Origin: an uncultured Alphaproteobacteria bacterium
Lineage (GTDB): Bacteria > Pseudomonadota > Alphaproteobacteria > RF32 > CAG-239
DNA: 64,000 nt
Reading direction: 5' to 3'
NCBI GenBank assembly: GCA_910587405.1
Contig: CAJUKS010000004.1
Coordinates: forward strand, 78,141 to 142,140
Positions 4,474 to 17,192 of this stretch are shown piece by piece (position 1 is the stretch's first letter; the number at the start of each line of letters is the position of its first letter). Position numbers and translations under genes: made by a program. The notes below the pieces were generated by a model. It had not been told where the DNA came from. It worked only from the letters and a program-made list of their open reading frames with translations, and did not search any database.

Positions 4474-7400
4474 TCAGCGCAATTTGCCCTTCAGCGGCGG
4501 GCGTCCGAGCTTCTCGGCCCGTTTGCCGATCTTCCGACGCAGAATATTTTCTTCGTCAAACCTTTCGCCGATCATGGCAAACATCATCGGCACAAACAAG
4601 GTTGCCACGAAGGTCGATAAAATCATGCCGCCGATCATCCCGGTCCCGATCGCATGACGGCTGCCGGCGCCGGCACCGGTGGAAACCGCCAGCGGCAAAA
4701 CGCCGAAAGTAAATGCCAGAGAGGTCATCACAATCGGCCGAAACCGCAGCTTGGCCGCACTGACGGCCGCTTCGGCATAAGTCATGCCGTTTTGTACCTG
4801 CATCACCGCAAACTCAACGATCAAAATTGCGTTTTTGGCCGCCAGACCGATCAGGGTGACCAAACCGACCTGGAAATAGAGGTCGTTTTGAATACCGCGC
4901 ATATAAACGGCCAACAATGCGCCCAACACCGCAAACGGCACCGACAGAATGACCACAAACGGCAGCGACCATTTTTCATACTGGGCCGCCAAAATCAAAA
5001 AGATCATGATCAAACCGAAAACAAATGCCTGCGTCGAAGCGCCGCCGGTCAGTTTTTCCTGATAAGCCGACCCGATCCACGACAACGAATAGCCGCTTCC
5101 CAACACCTCCGCCGCAACCTGTTCCATCGCCGCAATCGCCTGACCGGAAGAATAGCCGCTTGCCGGATCGCCCAAAACTTTGGCTGCCGGGAAAATATTG
5201 AACCGGTTGACCAGTTCGGGCCCGGTAACACGTTCGACGTGCAAAAGGGTGGACAACGGCACCAGCTGGCCGCTGTTAGACTTGACATATACATAGCGCA
5301 AATCATCGGGCGTCCGCCGGAACTTGGCTTCCGACTGCAAAGTTACCCGGAAGTTGCGCCCCATGTAGGTGAAATCATTGACATACAGATTACCGAACGT
5401 CGACTGCATCACCGCATAAATCGCATTGATCGGCACATTGAGGATTCTTGCCTTTTCACGATCCAGATCCACCCGGTACTGCGGCGTGCTGACCGAGAAA
5501 GTGGTGCGGACATTGTCCAACTCGGGACGTTCGTTGGCCACGGCAACAAATTCCCTCACCTTTTCCATCAGTTCTGCCGAACTTTTGCCGCCGCGATTCT
5601 GAATATAACCTTCAAAACCGCCGGCCGTACTCATCCCCATAATCGGCGGCATCGAAAAAGCATAACCGATTCCCTCCGGCTGGCTCATGCCGTATCCGGT
5701 ATAAAGCTGAGCCAGAGCTTCCGCCGACTGGCCCGGTCCTTTGCGCTGATCCCAGTCCTTAAGCACAATGAAACTCAGGGCCGAATAGGTGTTCTGGCTC
5801 GAAGAAAGGATATTGAAACCGTTAATCGTCAACACATCCTGCAGATCCGGACTTTTTCTTAACATACCGCCGACGGTATTGGTAAAATTAGTCGTCCGTT
5901 TCAGCGAAGAAGCCTCGGGCATACTGTAAGACATCAGAAGCGTTCCCTGGTCTTCGTTCGGCACCAGGCCGCCCGGCACAATCTTAAACAGCAGCAAAAT
6001 CAGGGCCATCACGCCCAGAAAACTGACCACCGCCGTTTTGCGGTGCTTAAGGAAAAACCGAACCCCTGCCAGATAAAGCTCGGTTGCCGCATCAAAAAAG
6101 TTGTCAAACCATTTGAAGAATCCATGCGGCTGCTTGTGTTCACGCACCGGTTTAATAATCAGGGCACATAACGCCGGCGTCAGCGTCAGTGCCACAAAAG
6201 CGGAAATCAGCACCGAAACCGCAATCGTGACCGAAAACTGCTTATACATCACGCCGGTCATGCCGCCTAAGAAAGCAATCGGCAAAAATACCGATGACAG
6301 TACCAAAGCCACCGCAACCACCGGCCCCGACACTTCCTGCATCGCTTTGACGGCAGCCTCGCGCGGCGACAGTTTCTCTTCGCTCATCAGACGTTCGACG
6401 TTTTCCAACACGATAATCGCGTCGTCCACCACAATACCGATCGCCAGAATCAAGCCGAACAAAGTCAGCAGATTGATCGAAAAACCCAACACATACATAC
6501 CGGCAAAAGCGCCGATAATCGATACCGGCACCGCCAAGATCGGAATCAGGGTCGCCCGCATATTCTGCAAAAACAAATAAACAACCGCAATAACCAGCAG
6601 CACCGCTTCAAAAAACGTATGAATCACTTCATTGATCGAAACATCGACGAATACAGTGGTGTCATAAGGAATTTCATAAGATATTCCTTCGGGAAAACTT
6701 TTGGAAACTTCTTCCATTTTCTGTCTGATCAACCCTGCCGTCTCCAGCGCGTTTGCCCCCGGTTGCAGATAGATCGCAAAAGCGACCGCCGGTTCGCCGT
6801 TAAAGAAGGAGTTGACACTGTAATCCTGAGCGCCCAGTTCAATCCGCGCCACGTCTTTCAGGCGCAAAATACCCCCCTTGTCATCGCTTTTAAGAATGAT
6901 GTTGCCGAATTCCTTTTCATCGACCAACCGTCCTTTGGTGTTGACCGAATAGGTATAGGGCAGATACTCGTCGAGCGGTTCCTGTCCGAACTGTCCGGCG
7001 GCAAACTGCGAGTTTTGTTCCTGCACCGCGGCAATTACGTCCTGCGGCGTCAGATTGAAATCGGCCAGTTTGTCGGGCGACAATAAGATCCGCATCGAAT
7101 AATCCTGAGAAGCAAACAGCGACGCGCTGCCCACCCCTTTGATACGGCGGATTTCATCCAAAACGTTCAATAAGGTATAGTTGGAAACAAAAATGGTATC
7201 GTATTGCGGCGACGAAGACTTCATTGTCACCACCTGCAAAATCGCATTCGACTTTTGTTCGACCTTGACGCCTTGTTTGGTGACTTCGGCCGGCAGTTTT
7301 GAAGTGGCCGCCTGCACCTTGTTGTTGACGTCAATGGTCGCCTGGTCGGGATCGGTACCGATGTCAAAAACCACCCCGATGGTCAGATAGCCTTGGGAAG

Positions 7401-7650
7401 TGGCGTTGGAATACATATAGATCATATTCTTGACACCGTTAATTTCCTGCTCGATCGGCGCGGCGACGGTATCCGCCAACACCTCGGCCGTAGCGCCGGG
7501 ATAAATTGCCGTGATTTGAATTTCTGTCGGCACAATATTCGGATATTGCTCAATCGGCAGTACCTTCATTGATACCAGTCCCGCCAGTATAAAAATCAGC
7601 GAGACAACCGTCGCAAAAATAGGCCGGTCAATAAAAAACTTTGAAAACAT
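4474..7650 (-). CDS. RND efflux transporter, inner-membrane pump (AcrB/MexB family)
   Basis: 1058 aa. N-terminus MFSKFFIDRPIFATVVSLIFILAG, 12-TM RND architecture, and the typical VVDDAIVVLENVER-like motif (VVDDAIIVLENVER). Confidence 0.93.
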   Translation of the reverse strand: MFSKFFIDRPIFATVVSLIFILAGLVSMKVLPIEQYPNIVPTEIQITAIYPGATAEVLADTVAAPIEQEINGVKNMIYMYSNATSQGYLTIGVVFDIGTDPDQATIDVNNKVQAATSKLPAEVTKQGVKVEQKSNAILQVVTMKSSSPQYDTIFVSNYTLLNVLDEIRRIKGVGSASLFASQDYSMRILLSPDKLADFNLTPQDVIAAVQEQNSQFAAGQFGQEPLDEYLPYTYSVNTKGRLVDEKEFGNIILKSDDKGGILRLKDVARIELGAQDYSVNSFFNGEPAVAFAIYLQPGANALETAGLIRQKMEEVSKSFPEGISYEIPYDTTVFVDVSINEVIHTFFEAVLLVIAVVYLFLQNMRATLIPILAVPVSIIGAFAGMYVLGFSINLLTLFGLILAIGIVVDDAIIVLENVERLMSEEKLSPREAAVKAMQEVSGPVVAVALVLSSVFLPIAFLGGMTGVMYKQFSVTIAVSVLISAFVALTLTPALCALIIKPVREHKQPHGFFKWFDNFFDAATELYLAGVRFFLKHRKTAVVSFLGVMALILLLFKIVPGGLVPNEDQGTLLMSYSMPEASSLKRTTNFTNTVGGMLRKSPDLQDVLTINGFNILSSSQNTYSALSFIVLKDWDQRKGPGQSAEALAQLYTGYGMSQPEGIGYAFSMPPIMGMSTAGGFEGYIQNRGGKSSAELMEKVREFVAVANERPELDNVRTTFSVSTPQYRVDLDREKARILNVPINAIYAVMQSTFGNLYVNDFTYMGRNFRVTLQSEAKFRRTPDDLRYVYVKSNSGQLVPLSTLLHVERVTGPELVNRFNIFPAAKVLGDPASGYSSGQAIAAMEQVAAEVLGSGYSLSWIGSAYQEKLTGGASTQAFVFGLIMIFLILAAQYEKWSLPFVVILSVPFAVLGALLAVYMRGIQNDLYFQVGLVTLIGLAAKNAILIVEFAVMQVQNGMTYAEAAVSAAKLRFRPIVMTSLAFTFGVLPLAVSTGAGAGSRHAIGTGMIGGMILSTFVATLFVPMMFAMIGERFDEENILRRKIGKRAEKLGRPPLKGKLR

Positions 7651-7666
7651 GGTATTTCCTTTCGCT

Positions 7667-8815
7667 TTACTTGCTCAGCGTTTCGGATTTCTCAACCGGA
7701 CGCACCGTCATCCCGGGACGAATCTTCATCAGATTGCTGACAATGACGCGATCGCCGGCTTTCAGGCCGCTGTCGACAATCCAGCCTCCTTCCCGCGTCA
7801 TCAGGCCGGTATGAATATTGACCATTTCCACCATATTTTTACCATTCAGAACATAAACGTACGAACCGTTGGCACCCTGCATGATTGCTTCCTGCGGCAC
7901 GATCAGGGCATTGACCCGGGTCAGGCCTTCCATCACCAGGCGCAGAAACTGTCCCGGTTTTAAACGCTTTTTCGGATTCGGAAAAACCGCCCGCAGCTTG
8001 ATGGTTCCGGTTCCTTCGTCAATCCCCGAATTAATAAAGTTGATTTGTCCCGCCAACGGGTATTCGGTATCATTGCTGAATTTTACTTTGGCCGTAATTT
8101 CGCTTTTGTTTTCCGGATTGCGGATCAATCCGTTATCAACCATGTTGGCCAGCGACATCATCTCGCTCTCCGAAGCCGAAAAAATAACATAAATCGGATC
8201 CAACTGGGTAATGTTGGTCAAAAGTCCGGTGGCCGAAATCAGACTGCCTTCCGACTGGGCCTCCATGCCGGTTACGCCGCTGATCGGCGCTTTTACCTTG
8301 GTATAGTCAAAATTAAGCTGCGCCGTTTCCACTTCCGATTCTGCCATCTGAACCGCTGCCTTTTGCGCTTCCAGTTCTGCCATTGCTTCATCACGGGACT
8401 TTTCGCTCACAACCTGCTGTTTATACAGTTTGGCAATTCTCTCCCAATCGTTTTCGGCACGGTGAAGCTGAGCTTTGGCTTTAGCCAAGTTGGCTTTGGC
8501 ATTGTTCAGCTGCGCACGATATTGCTCGGGATCAATTTCAAACAAAACGTCGCCTTCGCGCACTTCCGAACCTTCGACATAATTCTTTTTCAGCAGAATG
8601 CCGCCGACCCGGGCCCGCACTTCGGTCTCTTTGTATCCCTGCGCGCGCGCCGAGAATTCAAAACTGAGGGGAACGTCACGCGGTTCGACTTTCATTACCT
8701 CCACCGACATCATTTCCTGGCCGGCAGACGCCTGCCGCGCTTTTTCTTCTTTGCAGGCGCAAAGGGCCAACACCAAAAACAGTCCGGTAAACAACTTGCT
8801 TTTTTTCAACATCAC
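7667..8815 (-). CDS. RND periplasmic adaptor (membrane fusion protein, AcrA family) lipoprotein
   Basis: Lipobox LVLALCAC, coiled-coil hairpin region, and an operon position directly upstream of the RND pump. Confidence 0.88.
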   Translation of the reverse strand: MMLKKSKLFTGLFLVLALCACKEEKARQASAGQEMMSVEVMKVEPRDVPLSFEFSARAQGYKETEVRARVGGILLKKNYVEGSEVREGDVLFEIDPEQYRAQLNNAKANLAKAKAQLHRAENDWERIAKLYKQQVVSEKSRDEAMAELEAQKAAVQMAESEVETAQLNFDYTKVKAPISGVTGMEAQSEGSLISATGLLTNITQLDPIYVIFSASESEMMSLANMVDNGLIRNPENKSEITAKVKFSNDTEYPLAGQINFINSGIDEGTGTIKLRAVFPNPKKRLKPGQFLRLVMEGLTRVNALIVPQEAIMQGANGSYVYVLNGKNMVEMVNIHTGLMTREGGWIVDSGLKAGDRVIVSNLMKIRPGMTVRPVEKSETLSK

Positions 8816-8932
8816 ATAACCTTTCCTAATTTATTTTATAATGCCGCTGAATTTCTCAATAACATAAACCGTTTTTTTATTTCCGTCATCTCTTTTTTGC
8901 AACCGGGCGGGTTTTGGGCCGGCATGAGGCAA

Positions 8933-10270
8933 TTAGAAACCTTTGCCGGAAAAATGCCGCCGCGGTTGCGGTTTGGCCTTTTTGCCAAACCACAAATAAC
9001 AGACAAACAAGAACAGCAAAACCCGTGATACCGGCATCGCCAGCCAAACGCCGTCCATGCCGAACCACAAAGGCAGCGTAAACAGACATAACGGCAGGGC
9101 AACAAACGCGTCGCCGTAAATCAGCAGCGACGAATCAATAATTTTTCCGGTTGCCTGATAATAATAACCGGCCACCCGCACCACGCCCAGCAAGACAAAT
9201 GCGGTCGAACTGATAATCAAACCGTGCGCGGCTAAGGCCGCCGCCTCGCCGTGAAGATTAAACCATCCCGGAAAAACGTTATGCCCGGCAACCGAAACGC
9301 CCGTCATCACAATCCCCAACCCGAAGGCCGTATAATACCCCATATTGCCGATAACGTTCTGACGACGATAGCGACGGCCGCCGTACAAATAAGCGACCAA
9401 AGGCTGCACGCCGAGAGAAAGTCCGGTCATTAAAAGAGAACCGAGAGATTCCACCGCACCGACAAAAGTATACGCCGCCAGACCGTTCACCTGACCGTAT
9501 TTCAACGCTTGGTAATTATGAAAAAAAAGCATTGCAATGATCGACAGTTGGTTGCCCAACGACGGAAAACCGTTGACCAGAATATCTTTCAGATATTTAA
9601 ACTTCAGTTTGAACATCGCCCAGTCAAACCGCAGCTCGGTATAGCCGGTCGTGAAATACGTTAGCCCGGCCACCGCTATCACAACCTGAGAAACCACGGT
9701 CGCATAAGCGGCACCGGCAATGCCGCCGCCCAGCGGAAAAATAAACAGATAGTCAAGCGCCACATTCAGCAGCAGGCCGCCGATCATCAGCCACATCGAC
9801 AACACCGGGCGGCCGTCGTTGCGGATAACCGACAACATCGCCGTCACCAGCATATAGGCCAAATTGCCGACAATCAAAATCCGCGCATACCTTACCGCTC
9901 CCGGAATCAATTCGTCCGAAGCGCCGAAAAGCCGTAAAATATCAACCAGCCACATATAAACCGACACCGTCATTGCCGCGCTGAAAACCACCTGCCACAC
10001 CAGCATGTTGGCAAAACTGCGACGGGCCCGCCGAAGATCGCCGTTGCCCCGCGACTGCGAAATGATAATTGCCGCCCCGGTACCGAGCATATCGCCGACA
10101 GCGCCAAACAGCATCACCAGCGGCCAGGTGACCGCGACCGAAGCCAACCCGAGTTCTCCCGCGCTCCAACCGATAAAGATCGTGTCGACAATGCTGTAAG
10201 AACCGACGATCAGCATCCCGATCATCGAAGGTAACACGTACGACAAAAACAATTTTGTATTCTTCTTCAT
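8933..10270 (-). CDS. MATE-family multidrug efflux transporter
   Basis: 12-TM protein starting MKKNTKLFLSYVLPSMIGML (MATE N-terminal signature). I used the internal ATG at 10270 rather than the track start at 10360. Confidence 0.8.
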   Translation of the reverse strand: MKKNTKLFLSYVLPSMIGMLIVGSYSIVDTIFIGWSAGELGLASVAVTWPLVMLFGAVGDMLGTGAAIIISQSRGNGDLRRARRSFANMLVWQVVFSAAMTVSVYMWLVDILRLFGASDELIPGAVRYARILIVGNLAYMLVTAMLSVIRNDGRPVLSMWLMIGGLLLNVALDYLFIFPLGGGIAGAAYATVVSQVVIAVAGLTYFTTGYTELRFDWAMFKLKFKYLKDILVNGFPSLGNQLSIIAMLFFHNYQALKYGQVNGLAAYTFVGAVESLGSLLMTGLSLGVQPLVAYLYGGRRYRRQNVIGNMGYYTAFGLGIVMTGVSVAGHNVFPGWFNLHGEAAALAAHGLIISSTAFVLLGVVRVAGYYYQATGKIIDSSLLIYGDAFVALPLCLFTLPLWFGMDGVWLAMPVSRVLLFLFVCYLWFGKKAKPQPRRHFSGKGF

Positions 10271-10482
10271 AAACTCACCGGAAAAAATATCGTTAAATTT
10301 TGTGTCACGGCAGTCCCCTTCTCCCGCCGTTTCTCCCCTGTTTAATGCAAACCACTCCAAAAATCAAACCTTATTTAGTCTCTCCAAGCCGATTCCCAAC
10401 GGTTTATTTTTATTGAAAAAGACAAATATTCCGTGTAAAGTGAAACAAATTTAGACCAAACTTTTTACGACTGGAAAATGCG

Positions 10483-12573
10483 ATGGACGCCGGAAAACTA
10501 TGGATGTTGCAGGATTTTATAGGAACCAACAAAGTTTTATTCAGAATACCGGTTTATCAGCGAAATTACGATTGGTCCGATGTCAACTGCAACAAACTGC
10601 TGGATGACACCAAACAAATTATCGATACCGGCGAAAAGCATTTTCTCGGAACTTTCGTTTATATGCCGATCGGCGGCGGCTTTTCATTAAAAGAATATAT
10701 CATCATCGACGGTCAACAACGGCTGACGACCATGATGATTTTGCTGAAAGCATTGTCTGACCTCGCTCAGAAAAACGGTGACGGCTGCTATGAGGAAATC
10801 GAGGAAATCTATTTGCACAACCGCCACTGTGAGGAACAATTCAAAATCAAACTGAAACCGGTGAAGTCCGACAACGAACAATTTTTGGCGCTGTTGAAAA
10901 ACAATACCGATGCCTTGGACGAAGAAGGGCACATCTTTATCAATTATGAAATTTGCCGTAAACGCCTCGAAAAATGGATTGCCTCCGGCATCACGCCTTC
11001 AGAAATTCATACGGCGCTGGAGAAACTGGAAATCGTCGAAATCTCCTTCACCAAAGGAGAAGACGATCCCCAGGTGATCTTCGAAAGCATTAATTCCACC
11101 GGACTCGAACTTTCCTGCGCCGACCTCATCAGAAACTTTTTGCTGATGAACGCCGACAAACAGGAGGAACTGTACGAGAAATATTGGCTGTCTATTGAAA
11201 AAGCCCTCAAATCCGGTACCGATTATACCAACCTCAATCTGTTTTTTATGCAATATGTCATTTACAAAACCAGCGCACCGGTAAACTTGGGCTCTTTGTA
11301 TCAAAAGTTTGTAAAATTGTTTAAAGACGGCGGATACACTCAGGAAAGCTGCCTGAAAGAACTGAAGTACCATGCCGACATTTTTCGCGCGTTTGTCTTT
11401 GAGTGCTCCGACTATCCGGCACCGATACGCAAAATTCTGAAAAATCTCCGACAATTGAAGCAAACCACAAGCTATCCGTTTTTAATCCATGTTTTTGACG
11501 ACTACAAACAGGGCACGATCAACGAAGATACGCTGCGCCAAACGTTGGAATTGATCCTTTCTTATTTGGTCCGTCGTTCCGTTTGCGGCATTCCTTCCAA
11601 CTCTTTGCGCGGTTTGTTTATCTATCTCTACAACCGCGTATTTAAAGTGAGCGCCAACAAAAAGAAATATTATCAGGCTATTAACAAATTTCTTTTTACC
11701 ATGACTTCCAAAGACGCCATGCCGTCGACAACCGATTTTGAAAGAGCGCTGAAAACCAACAACTTGTACGGAAACCTCTCCCTATGCAAATTTTTATTGA
11801 TGGAAATTGAAAACGGCAACGGCAAAGAAACTCTCAATACCGAAACTCTGACGATTGAACACATCATGCCGCAGGCCTTGAGCTCCGACTGGAAACATAT
11901 TTCCGACCAAGATCATGAACAGTATCTGCATACGCTGGGAAATTTGTCGGTTTCGGGTTATAATTCGGAACTGTCAAACAAAAGCTTTTCCGAAAAGAAA
12001 AAGATCATTGCCGAAAACTCCAAAGCGGTTATCCTCAACAGCGACGTTCTGAGTAAAGACAGTTGGAATATTGACAGCATTAAAAGCCGTTCCGGCCGCC
12101 TGGCACAAATCCTGATGCAAAAATATGATATCGAACGCGTTACCGACGACAGTATTGAGTTTGATGTTGTCAATACGATTACGCTTAATGATTACAGCGA
12201 CGTTACCGGCAAAAAACTGGTTACTTTCAAATTTGACCGAGAAATCTACCGGCAAAACAAATACGCTCTGATGCTGTTGGAAATGGTACGGATCTTGGAT
12301 CAACGACATCCCGGCATTTTGGAGCAGCTGGCCCGACAGAACTTTTCCCTCAACCCCAGATGCAAACGTTGCTATCTCAGCTGCAAACGCGACAATATGT
12401 GCTCGCCGTACGAAATTGAGCAAAAACCCGGAATTTTCATCGAATTGAATCTGTCATCCCAAAATGTGATGAGCTTCATCGATAAACTGCTGGAACAATA
12501 CGGAGAAGACAAATCGTCTTTTTCGATCAACGTCATCGCCGAAGAAACCGACGATACCGATACCGAGGAATAA
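10483..12573 (+). CDS. DUF262/DUF1524 nuclease (GmrSD / BrxU / SspE-like type IV restriction family)
   Basis: The N-terminal DUF262 has FRIPVYQRNYDW and IIDGQQRLTT, the middle has FESINSTGLELSCADLIRNFLL, and the DUF1524 His-Me finger has TIEHIMPQ..W..LHTLGNLSVSGYNSELSNKSF. It ends 45 nt before cas1 with no terminator between them. Confidence 0.85.
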   Translation: MDAGKLWMLQDFIGTNKVLFRIPVYQRNYDWSDVNCNKLLDDTKQIIDTGEKHFLGTFVYMPIGGGFSLKEYIIIDGQQRLTTMMILLKALSDLAQKNGDGCYEEIEEIYLHNRHCEEQFKIKLKPVKSDNEQFLALLKNNTDALDEEGHIFINYEICRKRLEKWIASGITPSEIHTALEKLEIVEISFTKGEDDPQVIFESINSTGLELSCADLIRNFLLMNADKQEELYEKYWLSIEKALKSGTDYTNLNLFFMQYVIYKTSAPVNLGSLYQKFVKLFKDGGYTQESCLKELKYHADIFRAFVFECSDYPAPIRKILKNLRQLKQTTSYPFLIHVFDDYKQGTINEDTLRQTLELILSYLVRRSVCGIPSNSLRGLFIYLYNRVFKVSANKKKYYQAINKFLFTMTSKDAMPSTTDFERALKTNNLYGNLSLCKFLLMEIENGNGKETLNTETLTIEHIMPQALSSDWKHISDQDHEQYLHTLGNLSVSGYNSELSNKSFSEKKKIIAENSKAVILNSDVLSKDSWNIDSIKSRSGRLAQILMQKYDIERVTDDSIEFDVVNTITLNDYSDVTGKKLVTFKFDREIYRQNKYALMLLEMVRILDQRHPGILEQLARQNFSLNPRCKRCYLSCKRDNMCSPYEIEQKPGIFIELNLSSQNVMSFIDKLLEQYGEDKSSFSINVIAEETDDTDTEE

Positions 12574-12618
12574 ACGTCAAAACAATACCGATACAAAATA
12601 TAACCACAGGCCACCCTA

Positions 12619-13557
12619 ATGGATCGACAAATTATCGAAATATCAAACGACGGATTTAACCTTTCGCTCTACCGGGGATTTCTGGTGGTGGAAAACAAAA
12701 ATCAAGGATTAAAGTCCGAAATCCCTTTGGATAATATCTTGGCTTTGATCCTGTCGGCAAACAATGTATCCGTCACCAAAAATATAATCAACGCCATTGC
12801 CGAACAGGGCGGAAATATCATATTCTGCGACAAAAATTACCTTCCGTCAGCTCTCACCACCCCCTATACCGGCCACTGGCTGATCTCCTCACGGGTACGC
12901 CGACAAATAGATTGCTCCAAACCGCTGCAAAAAAATTTGTGGAAAAGCATTGTTCAAAATAAAATCTTTAATCAAGCCAAGATACTGGAATATTTCTTTC
13001 CCCAACATCCGCGCTTGGCCCGGCTCAAGCAACTGGCGCGTGAGACGCTCAGTAACGACGCTAAAAACAATGAAGGTACCGCCGCGGCAATTTATTTCAA
13101 ATCTTTGTTCGGAAAAAACTTTGTTCGAGACCGCTTAGGCAACAATGCCAACATTCTGCTCAACTATACTTATATCGTTTTGCGGGCCATGGTGGCGCGT
13201 TCGATTGCCGGCAACGGATTGTTGCCCTATTTGGGGCTGAAACATTGCACCAAATCAAATCCGCTGCCGTTGGTCGACGATTTAATCGAGCCTTTCCGCG
13301 CCATCGCCGACAAAATCGTGTTTGAACAACTCAATCAACTGGTTAACATCGAACAAATCGAATTGACTCCCGAAATAAAAAGAAACTTAACCAAAATTAT
13401 TACTTTTCCGGTTTTAACCGGCAAGGGATGCGTTTCCCTCAGTGAAGGAATTAATGACTTTGTAAGCAGCTTGGTCACAAGCTTCGAACTCAAAAAAGTG
13501 GTCCTGCAATACCCAACCATCCAATTACAGGAGTTGTCAAAACGGCTTCCTGATTAA
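12619..13557 (+). CDS. cas1: CRISPR-associated endonuclease Cas1, type II-C like
   Basis: 312 aa with motifs NNEGTAAAIYFKSLFG, LNYTYIVLRAMVAR and DLIEPFR, typical of type II Cas1. The stop codon lies inside a degenerate CRISPR repeat. Confidence 0.92.
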   Translation: MDRQIIEISNDGFNLSLYRGFLVVENKNQGLKSEIPLDNILALILSANNVSVTKNIINAIAEQGGNIIFCDKNYLPSALTTPYTGHWLISSRVRRQIDCSKPLQKNLWKSIVQNKIFNQAKILEYFFPQHPRLARLKQLARETLSNDAKNNEGTAAAIYFKSLFGKNFVRDRLGNNANILLNYTYIVLRAMVARSIAGNGLLPYLGLKHCTKSNPLPLVDDLIEPFRAIADKIVFEQLNQLVNIEQIELTPEIKRNLTKIITFPVLTGKGCVSLSEGINDFVSSLVTSFELKKVVLQYPTIQLQELSKRLPD

Positions 13558-14361
13558 GCGGGGATAAAATGACACCATTTGACAGGCCTCATACCAGCTG
13601 GTTATAATTGACTGTCTGATTAATCTCTGATAAAATCCCGTTATCAAAAAAAGCCTTCTGCATCGTGTTATAATTGACCGTCTGATTAATCTCTGATAAA
13701 ATAGCACCTACAACCGGTATATCGGTTCCTTCGTTATAATTGACCGTCTGATTAATCTCTGATAAAATTAATCTCCTGTTATTTCATTAAAACGCTGAGT
13801 TATAATTGACCGTCTGATTAATCTCTGATAAAATCAGCCGCATTACGACCTTTCATCTTTTTTAGTTATAATTGACCGTCTGATTAATCTCTGATAAAAT
13901 CCTTTCTACAAGCCCTTAAAAGGCCCTACAGTTATAATTGACCGTCTGATTAATCTCTGATAAAATGCGTCCGTATTTGCGGTACGTCTGCGTGCTGTTA
14001 TAATTGACCGTCTGATTAATCTCTGATAAAATCTCGCAAAGCATATATTCGTGAGCAGACTGTTATAATTGACCGTCTGATTAATCTCTGATAAAATATA
14101 TTTGTGATGGATTACCACCACCATTTAGTTATAATTGACCGTCTGATTAATCTCTGATAAAATGCTACCGATGCCCGAACCAAGACCACTCATGTTATAA
14201 TTGACCGTCTGATTAATCTCTGATAAAATGACGACTGAAATGTCGACCGTGGCTTTTTTGTTATAATTGACCGTCTGATTAATCTCTGATAAAATAAGTT
14301 CCCTATCTAATTCTAATGTAAAATAGTTATAATTGACCGTCTGATTAATCTCTGATAAAAT
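13535..14361 (+). CRISPR. Type II-C CRISPR array with 13 repeats and 12 spacers. The crRNA sense strand is +.
   Basis: The 36-nt repeat is GTTATAATTGACCGTCTGATTAATCTCTGATAAAAT. Eleven copies are identical (13667-14361). One is a C>T variant (13601-13636). One is degenerate, with 22/36 matches (13535-13570). Spacers are 29-30 nt and all unique. Polarity is inferred from the tracrRNA anti-repeat and from the TGATAAAAT extended -10 at each repeat's 3' end. Confidence 0.97.
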
Positions 14362-14369
14362 CTCTCATT

Positions 14370-14410
14370 AAGTAATGCCTTGAAATAGAACACATTTCAA
14401 GGCATTACTT
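14370..14410. terminator. Bidirectional hairpin between the last repeat and the cas2 stop
   Basis: Perfect 17-bp inverted repeat AAGTAATGCCTTGAAAT / ATTTCAAGGCATTACTT with a 7-nt loop. Confidence 0.6.
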
Positions 14411-14436
14411 GAGAATAAAATCATTAAAAAACCCGG

Positions 14437-14757
14437 CTAAAACAACAACAATTGCCCATTTTTTTCGCGAACATCTTCCTCATTTTCTTCGCAATTCTTC
14501 CCAAGATAATTTTCAGTCATCAAATACTGCTTATCCGTAATATACAAAAAAGATATTGAGGAATTGTCCGGAATAAACTTTGACAATTTCCGCGTTACCG
14601 TTTGTCCGACGTTTAAACTCTTTACCGGTTTGATATAAACCGAGAATTGCTTCATCACAAAACCTTCGTCCAACAGCAAATTGCGGAAACGCGTTGCTTT
14701 ACGCATTTCGGTTTTGGTCCGCACCGGAATATCAAACATACAGATAATCCACATCAT
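14437..14757 (-). CDS. cas2: CRISPR-associated endoribonuclease Cas2 (type II)
   Basis: 106 aa, with N-terminus WIICMFDIPVRTKTEMRKATRFRNLLLDEGFVMKQFSVYIKP, typical of type II Cas2. Confidence 0.9.
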   Translation of the reverse strand: MMWIICMFDIPVRTKTEMRKATRFRNLLLDEGFVMKQFSVYIKPVKSLNVGQTVTRKLSKFIPDNSSISFLYITDKQYLMTENYLGKNCEENEEDVREKNGQLLLF

Positions 14758-14768
14758 CGACCAACCGG

Positions 14769-16634
14769 TTAAAGTTTCAAGTCGCTGCCGCCCTTGGCTT
14801 GCGGAATGATGTGCTCAATCTCAACACCGATAAACCTATGATCAATGCTCAGGGTCGGATTGTAAGCGTCTTTCCTGCCTTGCTCTTTGGCCAGTTTGTA
14901 TTTTAAAATATTTTTATTGTTAACATACAATTTATGCTGCTGCAGATACATCCTCGCTTCGTCATTGAGCTTTTCATTCAAACGCTGCCTTTGTTCCAGT
15001 TCAGTTTTCTTCTTTGCCGACAAACCGATATCACGGCCCAACTCAATGTTAATATCATAAGGGCGTCCGTAAATGCGGATAATATCGTTAACCACCAACC
15101 GGATTTGATTGAGAATCATGTGAACGGCCGGGTTGGCAATCTTACCCCATTTAACTTCGTCTTTATCCAAACCGGGATTGTTTTTAATCAGCAACGGCGG
15201 CAACGGCTGAGTATCATTTTGCAAAATTTCGCCGTAATACGGAAGTTGCAGATATTTTCCCTGCTTTGCCCGCACCACTTCTTCTTCCGCCAAAAACCGC
15301 GGATCGGTCTTTGCCAGCGCATCGGTGACTTCGCGATGAGACAGCACGTTTTGCTTCATTTGCTCCAAAATCAGTTTGGAGGCCGTTTGTCCAAGCATCC
15401 CTCTTCCTTTGGGAAGTTTGGTTAAAAGCGCACCGATTTCTTTTTCATCGTCAATTTTGAAAATAGGTTTGAGGTGCTCAATTAAAGCGTCCTCACTGTA
15501 CAAACGCCCGTTTTTGTCGTCCGGATTTTTGGGTTCGGCCAAAAAGTCGACAAAGGTCGCCAACTCCTTTTCCGACAAATTTTTCAGATATTCTATGTCG
15601 GCAAATTCCGGCCGCGCATATAAATAGGCTTTGATCACCCGGTCGTCCAACAAAGAAATTTTCTGTTGTGCCGAAAGACCCAAGGTCTTCTTAATCGACT
15701 GTTTTCCGGCATTTATACCTTTCAATAAAAGCTCATTGACAATTTTGTCACGCTCTTCCAGGCTCAAACGGCGTTTATCGGTATCGCTGATCACCCGGAC
15801 ATTGTTAACTTCTTCGTATATCCGCCGCATTTCTGCAAGCGGGTGCGCTTTTAACAGGCGTTCTTCTTCTCTGAAATAAATACATTTTCCGGTCGCATAA
15901 GGCATCGGCGGCCGTTCATAAAACAAAATGTCGTAAATTTCTTTTTTGAGGCCGTCCTTTTGCATCTGTTTAAAATATTGGGCCTGCCGATCCCATATTT
16001 GGTTAAACTCGTCTTTCACCAGATAACGGGGAATCGCATAATCGACGATATTTTTTTCCAAAGCGTATTTTCTTTGCCGGATAATCCGATTTTGCGGATT
16101 TTCTTTTTCTTGGAGACGCTGATAAAAAAAGGCGCCGATCGTTTTTGAACCGGTATCTTTCAAATATTGTACCATCCGGTCATATGAAGATTTCTTAATC
16201 TTAGATTTTTCGCCTTCTTCCAGAACTTCTTCCGACAACTCCTCCGCCGCCGAAACAAAACCGGCGCCGCGATGCTTGGCCATATGCAAGATCGCCCGAC
16301 CGATGTAATTTTGATTTTCCAACTTGCCGTACAGGGCATCATGACGAATTTTATAAGGAGACTTTGCTTTCAATCGGTCGGTTCCTTCCGGGGTTTCGTT
16401 CACCCACAGATTGTTTTCAAAAAGCTTTTTGGCCAACAATTCCAACCTTTTACGCGTACGAACCAAATTTTTGCGTGCTGTTTTTTTAAGGCGCCGTTCT
16501 TCTGCCCCTTCCGAAATTTCAAAAATACGTACCCCGCCGTCAATAATATCTTTAGCAAGGTTGTTCTGATCCAGTTCAATCAAGCCGCTTCCGATTGAAC
16601 TCTCTCCCAAATCAAGATTAAGACGATACTTCAT
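14769..16634 (-). CDS. cas9: Cas9 N-terminal fragment of 621 aa. It has RuvC-I, bridge helix, REC, RuvC-II and the first HNH strand only. It is truncated relative to all known Cas9 and is probably a pseudogene.
   Basis: Motifs present are LNLDLGESSIGSG (RuvC-I), RRLKKTARKNLVRTRKRLE (Arg-rich helix), INIELGRD (RuvC-II) and VEIEHIIPQAKGGSD (HNH His), followed by LKL-stop. Nothing is encoded before the cas2 ATG, 12 nt downstream, for the rest of HNH, RuvC-III or the PAM-interacting domain. Confidence 0.85.
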   Translation of the reverse strand: MKYRLNLDLGESSIGSGLIELDQNNLAKDIIDGGVRIFEISEGAEERRLKKTARKNLVRTRKRLELLAKKLFENNLWVNETPEGTDRLKAKSPYKIRHDALYGKLENQNYIGRAILHMAKHRGAGFVSAAEELSEEVLEEGEKSKIKKSSYDRMVQYLKDTGSKTIGAFFYQRLQEKENPQNRIIRQRKYALEKNIVDYAIPRYLVKDEFNQIWDRQAQYFKQMQKDGLKKEIYDILFYERPPMPYATGKCIYFREEERLLKAHPLAEMRRIYEEVNNVRVISDTDKRRLSLEERDKIVNELLLKGINAGKQSIKKTLGLSAQQKISLLDDRVIKAYLYARPEFADIEYLKNLSEKELATFVDFLAEPKNPDDKNGRLYSEDALIEHLKPIFKIDDEKEIGALLTKLPKGRGMLGQTASKLILEQMKQNVLSHREVTDALAKTDPRFLAEEEVVRAKQGKYLQLPYYGEILQNDTQPLPPLLIKNNPGLDKDEVKWGKIANPAVHMILNQIRLVVNDIIRIYGRPYDINIELGRDIGLSAKKKTELEQRQRLNEKLNDEARMYLQQHKLYVNNKNILKYKLAKEQGRKDAYNPTLSIDHRFIGVEIEHIIPQAKGGSDLKL

Positions 16635-16689: not shown

Positions 16690-16719
16690 ATTGACATTTC
16701 AACGAAAATATAATTATAC
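16690..16719 (+). promoter_or_regulatory. Sigma70-type promoter for the tracrRNA
   Basis: TTGACA (16690-16695), an 18-nt spacer, then TATACT (16714-16719). It is divergent from the cas9 start. Confidence 0.6.
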
Positions 16720-16725
16720 TGAAAG

Positions 16726-16832
16726 TGATATATGTTTTGATATATTTTCAGAGATTAATCAGACGGTCAATGCATATATAATAAGGCTGAAAATGCCGTA
16801 AAATGAGGGGGCAATCCGTTGCCCCCATTATT
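16726..16832 (+). ncRNA. tracrRNA
   Basis: The anti-repeat CAGAGATTAATCAGACGGTCAAT (16748-16770) is the exact reverse complement of repeat nt 7-29. It is followed by a nexus-like AAGGCTGAAAATGCCG and the terminal hairpin GGGGGCAA-TCCG-TTGCCCCC. The 5' and 3' ends are inferred. Confidence 0.85.
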
Positions 16833-17027
16833 GTGTCCAGAAAATAACTCATTACAAAAACAATTGGTTACAGAAACGCTTCACTCAATCGCTACGCTAC
16901 GTTCATGGGCATATGCCAACCACCTACTCCGTCTGGCTTTCGCTTGCACGGAACCTGCTTTTTCGCAAATTTAAAATCGCCATTTTTCACATAAAAAACC
17001 GTCCTTAAAAGGACGGTTTTTTATTTT

Positions 17028-17104
<77 letters not shown>

Positions 17105-17192
17105 ATAAATGTCTGTTGCGCTCTGTCGGCGCTCAAGACAGTGCATACATACGCTTTTTATAAGGCGATGTCAAGCTTTAAAAACAACTTTT

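What the first reader, a model, noticed from the sequence alone, without database searches (positions are those of the whole stretch)
10483..13600. cas1 lies on the far side of the array, convergent with cas2-cas9, and appears co-transcribed with a DUF262/DUF1524 (GmrSD-type) nuclease
Canonical II-C order is cas9-cas1-cas2-array. Here an otherwise typical II-C Cas1 lies beyond the old end of the array on the opposite strand. It sits 45 nt downstream of a 696-aa DUF262/DUF1524 nuclease gene with no terminator between them. The last codons and stop of cas1 (CTT CCT GAT TAA) lie inside a degenerate 13th repeat (13535-13570). That repeat has 22/36 matches, concentrated in the blocks CTGATTAA and GATAAAAT, and it is exactly one 30-nt spacer away from the next repeat. 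The cas1/array junction therefore runs through a repeat. This could be the scar of a rearrangement that also deleted the cas9 3' half. Alternatively it could be a genuine alternative operon in which the adaptation integrase is paired with a His-Me-finger nuclease. I know of no described functional link between Cas1 and DUF262/DUF1524 proteins.
Basis: partly seen in the sequence, partly recalled or inferred. Interest (0 to 1): 0.8.

Follow-up and report, generated by a model that had tools for sequence, protein, structure and literature searches.

The report
Clade-wide rearranged type II-C CRISPR locus
The odd position of cas1 is the normal, inherited gene order of a whole group of gut alphaproteobacterial CRISPR-Cas9 systems; the restriction-type nuclease gene next to it is a local, incidental neighbour, and this strain's cas9 has separately been cut in half by a recent deletion.

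Summary
cas1 (12619-13557, +) lies beyond the old end of a 12-spacer array and converges on cas2 and a cas9 fragment. It sits 45 nt downstream of a GmrSD gene with no terminator between them. Its stop codon lies inside a degenerate 13th repeat.

Both interpretations fail in their specifics.

1. The cas1 | array | cas2-cas9 layout occurs in 22 species-level genomes of uncultured gut Alphaproteobacteria, plus metagenomic contigs. Cas1, Cas2 and Cas9 trees each recover this clade. Sixty-eight more distant II-C loci keep the canonical order.

2. The cas1 stop overlaps the degenerate first repeat in 12 of 23 loci, so the junction is ancestral. A sister lineage (cas1-cas2-array-cas9) is one inversion from both the canonical and this layout. 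Two nested inversions therefore explain the architecture.

3. The cas9 truncation is a separate 1.6-kb deletion between short direct repeats. It is absent from the nearest relative.

4. GmrSD precedes cas1 only in this species group. Elsewhere the upstream neighbour varies, and the closest GmrSD homologue elsewhere has no cas genes nearby.

The locus is a new architectural variant of type II-C CRISPR-Cas that sits in a defence island. It is not a Cas1-nuclease module.

The parts
10483..12573 (+). GmrSD-type (DUF262 + DUF1524) type IV restriction-like gene. It is a lineage-specific neighbour, not part of the CRISPR system.
   Evidence: It matches Pfam GmrSD_N and GmrSD_C and PADLOC Orf5, HEC-06 and mREase_IV. 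The DGQQR and EHIMPQ motifs are visible in the translation. It precedes cas1 only in the window, L001, L002, L107 and L108.
12574..12618 (+). 45-nt GmrSD-cas1 spacer with no terminator. In this species it replaces the cas1 upstream region seen in relatives.
   Evidence: The scan finds no terminator-like site. The fold z-score is 0.13. Relatives have 100-500 nt upstream of cas1 with their own promoter-like motifs and GGAG ribosome-binding sites.
12619..13557 (+). cas1 (type II), intact. It carries a 9-codon C-terminal extension that runs into the degenerate repeat.
   Evidence: TIGR03639 scores 245 bits. The candidate catalytic residues (by analogy with other Cas1 proteins) E152, H209, D220/D221 and E224 are invariant across 11 clade members. 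L001 and L002 have TAA where the window has CAG.
13535..13570 (+). Degenerate first repeat, which is the oldest or 'extra' repeat. It overlaps the cas1 stop codon.
   Evidence: It matches 22/36 positions in exact register. It cannot pair with the tracrRNA anti-repeat, whereas the consensus repeat pairs at -41.8 kcal/mol.
13571..14361 (+). CRISPR array of 12 spacers and 12 intact 36-nt repeats. The crRNA sense is the + strand, and each repeat carries TTGACC-17-TGaTAAAAT.
   Evidence: The sense strand follows from complementarity to the tracrRNA.
14362..14436 (+). Leader at the presumed acquisition end, with a conserved hairpin (14369-14411) followed by a T-run in most relatives (less T-rich in the window). 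It probably terminates array transcripts before cas2.
   Evidence: The distance to the cas2 stop is 77-78 nt in 19 of 21 loci. The hairpin has compensatory changes at 6 of 12 pairs across 23 loci.
14437..14757 (-). cas2, intact.
   Evidence: It matches Pfam CRISPR_Cas2 and TIGR01573 and is 84-92% identical in clade members.
14769..16634 (-). cas9 remnant: the N-terminal 618 residues plus 3 out-of-frame codons. The rest of HNH and everything C-terminal to it (by Cas9 domain order, RuvC-III and the PAM-interacting domain) is missing.
   Evidence: It covers TIGR01865 positions 1-604 of 1070. The L001 orthologue is 1156 aa and full length. The exact 621-aa protein is indexed in 171 blocks of the public collection.
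14781..14789 (.). Deletion junction. A 9-nt stretch is shared by both flanks of the 1,613 bp that L001 retains.
   Evidence: Pairwise BLAST and the flank sequences.
16728..16835 (+). Predicted tracrRNA, divergent from cas9: an anti-repeat at about 16745-16785, a nexus-like GGCTGAAAATGCC and a terminator at 16807-16826. Its promoter is TTGACA-18-TATACT at 16691-16720. The ends are approximate.
   Evidence: Sequence; promoter and terminator scan; a 30-bp duplex with the repeat at -41.8 kcal/mol. Rfam gave no match.

Best explanation
This is a type II-C CRISPR-Cas9 locus with a lineage-specific but stably inherited gene order: tracrRNA> <cas9 <cas2 leader [<acquisition end, array, old end] <-> cas1>. 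Here cas1 sits at the trailer end of the array on the crRNA-sense strand.

How it works:
- crRNAs are made on the + strand from a promoter inside every repeat. This is shown only as a consensus match.
- crRNAs pair with the tracrRNA encoded upstream of cas9. The complementarity is shown.
- New spacers enter at the cas2-proximal repeat, next to a conserved 78-nt leader. This is inferred from repeat decay, constant spacing and published II-C behaviour.
- Transcripts stop at a conserved hairpin before cas2. This is inferred from covariation.

Position of cas1. cas1 ends in, or within a few bases of, the oldest ('extra') repeat. That repeat has lost its first ~7 bases of tracrRNA-pairing sequence but keeps its promoter half. 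cas1 transcripts therefore necessarily run into the array.

Origin of the layout. It is best explained by two nested inversions of a canonical cas9-cas1-cas2-array locus. The first inverted cas1-cas2-array relative to cas9, a state still seen in the sister lineage L032/L110. The second inverted array+leader+cas2. That second step fused the cas1 3' end to the extra repeat and the cas9 3' end to the cas2 start.

Two later, unrelated events in the window's species:
1. A GmrSD type IV restriction gene was inserted between matE and cas1. It displaced the native cas1 upstream region, so cas1 is now probably read through from GmrSD. This is inferred.
2. In this clonal strain, a 1,613-bp deletion between short direct repeats removed the cas9 3' half. 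Interference, and probably Cas9-assisted spacer acquisition, is therefore dead.
For: Architecture:
- 20 species-representative genomes found with the window Cas1 have cas1(+), then an array, then cas2(-) cas9(-).
- L030 and L034 and the metagenomic contigs L113-L116 have the same layout.
- 68 more distant Cas1 relatives (35-43% identity) all have cas9, cas1 and cas2 on one strand in canonical order.

Co-evolution:
- Neighbour-joining trees of Cas1, Cas2 and Cas9 each recover the clade on a long stem. In the Cas9 and Cas2 trees L110/L032 is its sister.
- Cas9 identity to L001 is 68% and 58% in L030 and L034 (68-73% by tblastn in other main-clade loci), 49% in L110 and 24-27% in canonical loci.

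Junction:
- The degenerate first repeat overlaps the cas1 stop in 12 of 23 loci and lies within 20 nt of it in 16 of 23.
- In the early-branching L030 and L034 the stop is the TAG at repeat positions 5-7.
- Mismatches concentrate at positions 1-7, while positions 19-36 are nearly invariant.

Intermediate state:
- L110 reads cas1> cas2> leader-hairpin [3 repeats, crRNA sense on the - strand], 300 nt with a hairpin, <cas9, tracr anti-repeat.
- L032 has the same cas1-cas2-array part.

Polarity:
- The cas2-proximal repeat is always perfect. The leader is 77-78 nt in 19 of 21 loci, with a covarying hairpin.
- Published work shows that II-C systems acquire spacers at the last transcribed repeat and that the first repeat is often mutated in its first 15 nt (PMC12080349).

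Activity: no spacer is shared between any two loci, and arrays hold 5-37 repeats.

cas9 deletion. It is a real allele, because L107 and L108 are 100% identical over 13.9 kb and the truncated protein is widely indexed.

GmrSD as an incidental neighbour. L021 has the same hlyD-matE neighbourhood but carries sbcCD instead of GmrSD.
Against: - No transcript data exist. The promoters, the terminator, read-through from GmrSD into cas1 and read-through from cas1 into the array are all sequence inferences.
- Acquisition polarity could not be confirmed from shared spacers, because none are shared.
- The two-inversion path is a parsimony argument. The Cas1 neighbour-joining tree places L110/L032 next to the L034 group rather than outside the whole clade. 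Independent origins or a different order of events are therefore not excluded. The trees carry no bootstrap support.
- DUF262/GmrSD-type genes occur near four independent II-C loci (the window species, L015, L102 and L110). This could hint at more than chance co-location, although their positions relative to cas1 differ every time.
Confidence: 0.85

Rival explanations
1. Cas1 and the GmrSD nuclease form a genuine functional module. In this reading the His-Me-finger nuclease supplies DNA fragments to, or regulates, the Cas1 integrase, and they are encoded as one operon for that reason.
For: The two genes are 45 nt apart with no terminator or stable structure between them. The adjacency is kept in L001 and L002 at 94-96% protein identity. 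A second, unrelated GmrSD (25% identity) lies two genes upstream of cas1 in L015. From general knowledge, not tested here, restriction cleavage is known to stimulate type II spacer acquisition.
Against: About 20 genomes with the same CRISPR architecture lack any GmrSD next to cas1. Their upstream genes include MutY, DUF2779, SbcCD, an HTH protein, ASCH, an autotransporter and a housekeeping operon, often on the opposite strand. The closest GmrSD outside the species (66% identity, Clostridia) is a stand-alone gene. Other DUF262 genes near II-C loci sit next to cas9 or 4 kb away, not next to cas1. In L015 the conserved cas1 upstream region is intact between the inserted cassette and cas1.
Confidence: 0.05
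2. A single recent local rearrangement in this genome both displaced and inverted cas1 and deleted the cas9 3' half. On this reading the locus is one decay scar.
For: cas9 is truncated and cas1 is out of place in the same 4-kb stretch. The first repeat is strongly degenerate.
Against: L001 has the same cas1 position with a full-length 1156-aa cas9. The cas1 position is shared across lineages down to 42% Cas1 identity. The cas9 deletion has simple direct-repeat junctions 1.2 kb away from the cas1 junction.
Confidence: 0.02
3. The cas1 gene is a foreign or orphan cas1, from another CRISPR type or a casposon-like element, that landed next to a II-C locus that had lost its own cas1.
For: cas1 is physically separated from cas2 and cas9 and has its own upstream region in most relatives. 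In L034-type loci Cas1 is more divergent (42%) than Cas9 (57%).
Against: Cas1 scores 245 bits against the type II Cas1 model, far above any other subtype model. Its closest solved structures are type II Cas1 proteins. The Cas1 tree recovers the same clade as Cas9 and Cas2. The sister lineage has this same Cas1 type directly upstream of cas2.
Confidence: 0.03
4. The layout or the cas9 truncation is an assembly or binning artefact of a metagenome-assembled genome.
For: Most related sequences are MAGs, and arrays are known break points for assemblers. L002, L013, L021 and L032 all end in or near the array.
Against: Two independent NCBI assemblies are 100% identical to the window over 13,866 bp spanning the whole locus. 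The exact truncated protein is indexed in 171 blocks of the collection. The architecture recurs in more than 25 independent assemblies from different studies.
Confidence: 0.01

Closest known systems
Canonical type II-C CRISPR-Cas (Neisseria meningitidis and Campylobacter jejuni type)
   Same: It has the minimal gene set of cas9, cas1 and cas2, with no csn2 or cas4. Repeats are 36 nt, each carrying its own -35 and extended -10 promoter. The array is transcribed towards cas2, opposite to cas9 and cas2. The tracrRNA lies upstream of cas9. The first transcribed repeat is degenerate (PMC3737331; PMC12080349).
   Different: cas1 is not between cas9 and cas2. It lies at the trailer end of the array on the other strand, and its stop codon is in or next to the extra repeat. 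cas2 follows cas9 after about 22 nt. cas1 and cas2 are therefore separate, convergent transcription units.
L032/L110-type II-C loci (sister lineage: a Rickettsiales-labelled MAG and a JGI metagenome contig)
   Same: These are the closest Cas9 (49%), Cas2 (63-66%) and Cas1 (50-51%) outside the clade. The repeat 5' half (GTTATAGTTGACCGT) is nearly identical. A leader hairpin lies next to cas2, and the tracr anti-repeat lies upstream of cas9.
   Different: The order is cas1-cas2-leader-array-cas9, so cas1 and cas2 remain an operon and cas9 is the gene across the array. There are 300 nt and a hairpin between cas9 and the extra repeat, rather than an overlap.
GmrSD-family type IV restriction enzymes (DUF262 + DUF1524); by sequence search the only related solved structure is SspE
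   Same: The two-domain architecture has an N-terminal DUF262 with DGQQR and a C-terminal DUF1524 His-Me finger. It gives strong matches to the PADLOC Orf5, HEC-06 and mREase_IV models.
   Different: It has about 150 extra C-terminal residues with no family match. Its only PDB sequence hit is weak (SspE, E 6e-4, N-terminal 90 residues). Its activity and specificity are untested.
Suppression of the 'extraneous crRNA' by mutation of the extra repeat in II-C arrays (Feussner et al. 2025, PMC12080349)
   Same: The first repeat is mutated mainly in its first bases, and its predicted pairing with the tracrRNA is lost. This matches the published pattern.
   Different: Here the upstream transcription that would create such an RNA comes from cas1 itself, with no intergenic region at all. 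That study discarded loci with less than 30 nt upstream of the array, so it did not cover this situation.

Membership tests
Type II-C CRISPR-Cas | Cas9 effector of the type II (Csn1) family | tested here: met
   The window fragment scores 297 bits on TIGR01865 but covers only positions 1-604 of 1070. The L001 orthologue scores 460 bits over 1-1069. The closest solved structures by sequence are Cas9 chains of 1055-1095 residues. In this strain the gene is a truncated remnant.
Type II-C CRISPR-Cas | Type II Cas1 and Cas2 present, with no csn2 (II-A) and no cas4 (II-B) | tested here: met
   TIGR03639 cas1_NMENI scores 245 bits and TIGR01573 cas2 scores 63 bits. The only ORFs between 12.6 and 16.7 kb with family hits are cas1, cas2 and cas9. 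The called genes in L107-L116 show the same set.
Type II-C CRISPR-Cas | Conserved cas9-cas1-cas2 operon order | tested here: not met
   The order is cas9-cas2 on one strand and cas1 on the other strand beyond the array, in the window and in 22 or more related genomes. 68 more distant II-C loci do have the canonical order. The system is therefore II-C by gene content and phylogeny but an architectural variant.
Type II-C CRISPR-Cas | tracrRNA with an anti-repeat complementary to the CRISPR repeat | tested here: met
   The anti-repeat at about 16745-16785 forms a 30-bp duplex with a 5-nt bulge at -41.8 kcal/mol. A nexus-like hairpin and a terminator follow it. No Rfam family matched, and expression is untested.
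Type II-C CRISPR-Cas | Promoter inside each repeat, and spacer acquisition at the transcriptionally last repeat | tested here: inconclusive
   TTGACC-17-TGaTAAAAT is present in all 12 intact repeats. The cas2-proximal repeat is perfect, the cas1-proximal repeat has decayed, and the leader length is conserved. There is no RNA or time-series evidence, and no shared spacers are available to show polarity.
GmrSD / type IV restriction (DUF262 + DUF1524) | N-terminal DUF262 (GmrSD_N) and C-terminal DUF1524 (GmrSD_C) domains in one polypeptide | tested here: met
   PF03235 matches at E 1e-33 (residues 12-221) and PF07510 at E 2e-24 (residues 414-542). PADLOC Orf5 matches at E 2e-127.
GmrSD / type IV restriction (DUF262 + DUF1524) | Nuclease activity on modified DNA | not testable with these tools
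   Only sequence motifs can be seen (DGQQR, EHIMPQ).
   The adjacency occurs only in the window, L001, L002, L107 and L108. It is absent upstream of cas1 in about 20 other clade genomes. Searching from the GmrSD side gave only those genomes plus a cas-less Clostridia locus.

The most novel reading that the evidence does not exclude
Placing cas1 at the trailer end, with its stop codon inside the extra repeat, may be functional rather than a neutral frozen accident.

Every cas1 mRNA is physically continuous with pre-crRNA. Its 3' end would then be set by tracrRNA/RNase III/Cas9 processing at the first intact repeat. This would couple the dose of the integrase to crRNA biogenesis. It would also uncouple Cas1 from the cas9-cas2 operon, giving a built-in way to regulate adaptation separately from interference.

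The selective loss of the first ~7 bases of the extra repeat, with its promoter half retained, would be the adaptation that stops a cas1-derived 'extraneous' guide RNA from loading into Cas9.
Probability: 0.15. Interest if true: 0.6.

Novelty: new variant of a known kind. Interest (0 to 1): 0.4.

Why it matters
Type II-C is defined in the literature by a conserved cas9-cas1-cas2 operon. Here a sizeable, apparently active clade has split the Cas1-Cas2 integrase genes into two convergent transcription units on either side of the array. More than 120 Cas1 clusters at 90% identity in gut metagenomes are at least 59% identical to this Cas1. The layout was checked in about 25 loci.

- It shows that co-transcription of cas1 and cas2 is dispensable for a maintained type II system.
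- It provides a natural case in which a cas gene reads straight into the 'extra' repeat. This bears on how II-C systems avoid extraneous crRNAs.
- It offers a rare instance in which an intermediate gene order survives in a sister lineage, so the inversion path can be reconstructed.
- Annotation pipelines that expect cas9-cas1-cas2 may misclassify these loci as incomplete.
- It removes a tempting false lead: the GmrSD-Cas1 adjacency is defence-island neighbourhood, not a new adaptation module.
- This particular strain is a natural cas9-null with intact cas1 and cas2.

Tried and rejected
- Shared spacers between related arrays were sought to establish acquisition polarity. None are shared between any two loci.
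- The PAM-proximal 24 nt of three window spacers were searched in IMG/VR viral contigs to find protospacers and a PAM. There were no hits.
- Rfam was searched for a tracrRNA or other RNA family in 10-18 kb. Only tRNA-Met was found, and weak hits were far below gathering scores.
- The L032 repeat was searched in all species genomes to find the contig carrying its cas9. Only the same contig was found. The question was solved instead through the 66%-identical Cas1 P0122 and its contig L110.
- Pfam was run on the small ORFs inserted between cas1 and the array in L012, L020 and L006, on the 213-aa gene between GmrSD and cas1 in L015, and on the recurrent ~260-aa upstream gene. No family matched.
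- Six literature searches and two papers read found no description of cas1 beyond the array in type II systems, nor of a Cas1-GmrSD link. The 2014 classification paper guessed by PMC id was not held. Supplementary tables of classification papers were not checked.
- The palindromic promoter-like motif upstream of cas1 in four relatives was considered as a dedicated cas1 operator. It also occurs elsewhere in L011, so it was not pursued.
- A first attempt at full 77-sequence trees timed out. It was repeated on about 30 representatives.

Full report
**What is in the window**

- The + strand carries a 696-aa gene at 10483-12573 with GmrSD_N (DUF262) and GmrSD_C (DUF1524) domains.
- A 45-nt gap follows, then cas1 at 12619-13557. 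cas1 matches Pfam Cas_Cas1 and NCBIfam TIGR03639 'type II Cas1' at 245 bits against a cut-off of 120.
- Twelve 36-nt repeats (GTTATAATTGACCGTCTGATTAATCTCTGATAAAAT) lie at 13601-14361 with 66-nt periodicity.
- On the - strand, cas2 (14757-14437) and a 621-aa Cas9 fragment (16634-14769) converge on cas1.
- The stretch 13535-13570 matches the repeat at 22/36 positions, in exact register one 30-nt spacer before the first intact repeat. It contains the last four cas1 codons.
- The chance of such a match at one fixed site is about 6e-6. Only three other sites in the window reach that score, one of which is the tracrRNA anti-repeat.
- No terminator-like site lies between the GmrSD gene and cas1. The region folds no better than shuffled sequence (z = 0.13).

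**Orientation of the system**

- Upstream of cas9, on the + strand, lies a sequence complementary to the repeat. It forms a 30-bp duplex with a 5-nt bulge at -41.8 kcal/mol. A nexus-like hairpin and a GC-rich terminator at 16807-16826 follow it, and a TTGACA-18-TATACT promoter precedes it.
- This is a typical tracrRNA arrangement, and it fixes the crRNA sense as the + strand. That is the same strand as cas1 and opposite to cas9 and cas2.
- Every intact repeat contains TTGACC-17-TGaTAAAAT on that strand. This is the repeat-embedded promoter design described for type II-C systems.
- Published work states that II-C arrays are transcribed opposite to the cas operon (PMC3737331). It also states that they acquire spacers at the transcriptionally last repeat, and that the first, oldest 'extra' repeat is mutated in 60% of systems, mostly in its first 15 nt (PMC12080349).
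- By that logic the degenerate repeat at the cas1 end is the old end, and the cas2-proximal end is the acquisition end.

**The cas1 position is a clade character, not a scar**

- A search of one genome per prokaryotic species with the window Cas1 returned 24 loci, all from uncultured gut Alphaproteobacteria.
- In all 20 loci long enough to judge, cas1 is followed by an array and then by cas2 and cas9 on the opposite strand.
- A profile search reached 80 loci. The same layout holds in L030 (59% Cas1 identity) and L034 (42%).
- In contrast, 68 more distant relatives (35-43% identity) all show cas9, cas1 and cas2 on one strand in canonical order. Metagenomic contigs L113-L116 add two more examples of the variant layout.
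- Neighbour-joining trees of Cas1, Cas2 and Cas9 each recover the clade on a long stem. The three genes have therefore evolved together since the rearrangement.
- The Cas1 residues taken as catalytic by analogy with other Cas1 proteins (E152, H209, D220/D221, E224) are invariant.
- Arrays hold 5 to 37 repeats, and no spacer is shared between any two genomes. This points to continuing turnover.
- A search of 5.8 billion proteins listed 120 clusters at 59% identity or more to this Cas1. The clade is common in gut metagenomes.

**The junction through a repeat is ancestral**

- Across 23 loci the first repeat is degenerate in 20 of 23 (22-35 of 36 matches). It overlaps the cas1 stop codon in 12 and lies within 20 nt of it in 16.
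- In the two early-branching lineages, L030 and L034, the stop codon is the TAG at repeat positions 5-7.
- Mismatches cluster in positions 1-7, the part that pairs with the 3' portion of the anti-repeat. Positions 19-36, which include the extended -10, are almost invariant.
- This fits a repeat retained as the promoter for the oldest spacer but disabled as a tracrRNA partner. The window's copy cannot pair with the anti-repeat at all.
- In the window itself the overlap is slightly secondary. L001 and L002 have TAA where the window has CAG, which gives the window a 9-codon extension into the decayed repeat.
- At the other end, the last repeat is always perfect. The distance to the cas2 stop is 77-78 nt in 19 of 21 loci.
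- That leader contains a hairpin followed by a T-run, with compensatory changes at 6 of 12 pairs. It is probably a terminator that keeps array transcripts out of cas2.

**How the layout arose**

- The closest relatives outside the clade are L032 and the contig L110, which was found through a 66%-identical Cas1. L110's Cas9 is 49% identical to L001's, and the lineage's Cas2 is 63-66% identical, against 24-42% for canonical loci. Its repeat shares the 5' half GTTATAGTTGACCGT.
- The order in L110 is cas1, cas2, leader hairpin, array with crRNA sense on the opposite strand, 300 nt with a hairpin, then cas9 convergent, with the anti-repeat upstream of cas9.
- This arrangement is one inversion (of cas1-cas2-array) away from the canonical order. 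It is also one inversion (of array-leader-cas2) away from the window's order.
- The second inversion needs breakpoints between the cas1 end and the cas2 start, and between the cas9 end and the extra repeat.
- It therefore predicts what is seen: the cas1 3' end fused to the extra repeat, and cas2 starting about 22 nt after cas9.
- This is an inference from parsimony. The Cas1 tree places L110/L032 beside the L034 group rather than outside the whole clade, and no support values were computed.

**The cas9 truncation is a separate, recent event**

- L001 is 91-93% identical in DNA and has the same cas1 position, but its Cas9 is a full-length 1156-aa protein.
- Relative to L001 the window lacks 1,613 bp. 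The two flanks share G(C/T)CGCTGCC, and the junction at 14781-14789 joins the HNH codons GGSD to sequence just past the cas9 stop.
- The remnant lacks the rest of HNH and everything C-terminal to it (by Cas9 domain order, RuvC-III and the PAM-interacting domain).
- The allele is real. Two independent NCBI assemblies are 100% identical to the window over 13.9 kb, and the exact 621-aa protein is indexed in 171 blocks of the public collection.
- Type II acquisition is assisted by Cas9 (abstract of PMC12477760). This strain has therefore probably lost both interference and normal adaptation, although cas1 and cas2 are still intact.

**The GmrSD gene is an incidental neighbour**

- GmrSD precedes cas1 only in the window, its identical MAGs, and L001 and L002.
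- Elsewhere the upstream neighbour varies: MutY, DUF2779, SbcCD, an HTH protein, an ASCH protein, an autotransporter, or proteins with no family match. It is often on the other strand.
- In L030, cas1 overlaps the stop codon of a housekeeping operon.
- L021 shares the window's hlyD-matE neighbourhood but has sbcCD in the slot occupied here by GmrSD.
- Several relatives have conserved promoter-like sequences and strong ribosome-binding sites upstream of cas1. The window species has lost these, so here cas1 probably depends on read-through from GmrSD.
- Searching from the GmrSD side found only the same species group plus a 66%-identical stand-alone gene in a Clostridia MAG with no cas genes nearby.
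- DUF262-type genes occur near three other II-C loci: L015 (two genes upstream of cas1, 25% identity), L102 (just downstream of cas9) and L110 (4 kb beyond cas9).
- Varied lineages in varied positions are what clustering in defence islands produces. A dedicated partnership with Cas1 would give a fixed position.
- The protein matches PADLOC models for stand-alone type IV restriction-like defence genes.

**Comparison with what is known**

- By gene content, protein families, tracrRNA, repeat promoters and array polarity, this is a type II-C system. It fails one textbook feature, the cas9-cas1-cas2 operon order.
- I found no description of this layout in six full-text searches or in the papers read. 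The recent survey of II-C upstream regions discarded loci with less than 30 nt upstream of the array, which would exclude these. I cannot exclude that it appears in a supplementary table somewhere.
- I rate it a new architectural variant of a known kind, of moderate interest.

**Verdict**

- The most novel reading still open is that cas1 read-through into the array couples integrase expression to crRNA processing. That needs transcript data.

Noticed in passing
L110:2860-7976 and L032:7983-10393: The sister lineage has yet another non-canonical II-C order: cas1-cas2-leader-array, then cas9 convergent. It is one inversion from both the canonical layout and the window's layout.
   Followed up: yes
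L102:6552-15749: An unrelated II-C locus is shuffled differently: array, cas1>, <cas2, cas9>, then a 687-aa GmrSD-like gene (29% identity to the window's) directly downstream of cas9.
   Followed up: partly
L031:8001-8903: A solo cas1 of this clade (57% identity) sits in a Holosporaceae MAG, flanked by housekeeping genes. No repeat, cas2 or cas9 is left. A far-side cas1 could be left behind like this when the rest of the locus is lost.
   Followed up: partly
L012:10924-11196 and the equivalent region of L020; L006:9489-9925: Insertions of 300-440 nt lie between cas1 and the array. In L012 the insert encodes an 84-90-aa protein with no Pfam match, and the L020 copy looks disrupted. Its function is unknown.
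   Followed up: partly
L015:7373-9797: A two-gene cassette (a 593-aa GmrSD plus a 213-aa protein with no family match) is inserted between a conserved ~260-aa gene and the intact cas1 upstream region. The close relative L016 lacks it.
   Followed up: partly
L008:9930, L013:2339, L018:7974, L019:289: A promoter-like motif lies just upstream of cas1 in four relatives: TTGACTT(n)GCGGAGAAT...TCTCCGC, with an inverted repeat over the -10 region. A similar motif occurs elsewhere in L011. It may be a regulated promoter.
   Followed up: partly
window 13579-13608: A perfect sigma-70 consensus (TTGACA-18-TATAAT) is formed by the oldest spacer plus the GTTATAAT start of the first intact repeat. It is probably fortuitous. 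It could compensate for the decayed promoter of the extra repeat.
   Followed up: no
window 16840-17110: Synteny with L001 ends just after the tracrRNA terminator (16839). The window continues with a strong hairpin terminator (16991-17024) and tRNA-Met (17028-17104, -). The CRISPR block therefore sits at a boundary of conserved gene order.
   Followed up: no
window 4474-10360: An RND efflux pump (AcrB-type, 1058 aa), a membrane-fusion protein (382 aa) and a MatE transporter (475 aa) lie on the - strand immediately left of the GmrSD gene. This neighbourhood is conserved in L001, L002 and L021.
   Followed up: no
L113:10909-11120 and L116:9737-9904: Some clade members have only 167-210 nt between cas1 and cas2, which leaves room for at most one to three repeats. 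These are near-empty arrays in otherwise intact loci.
   Followed up: no
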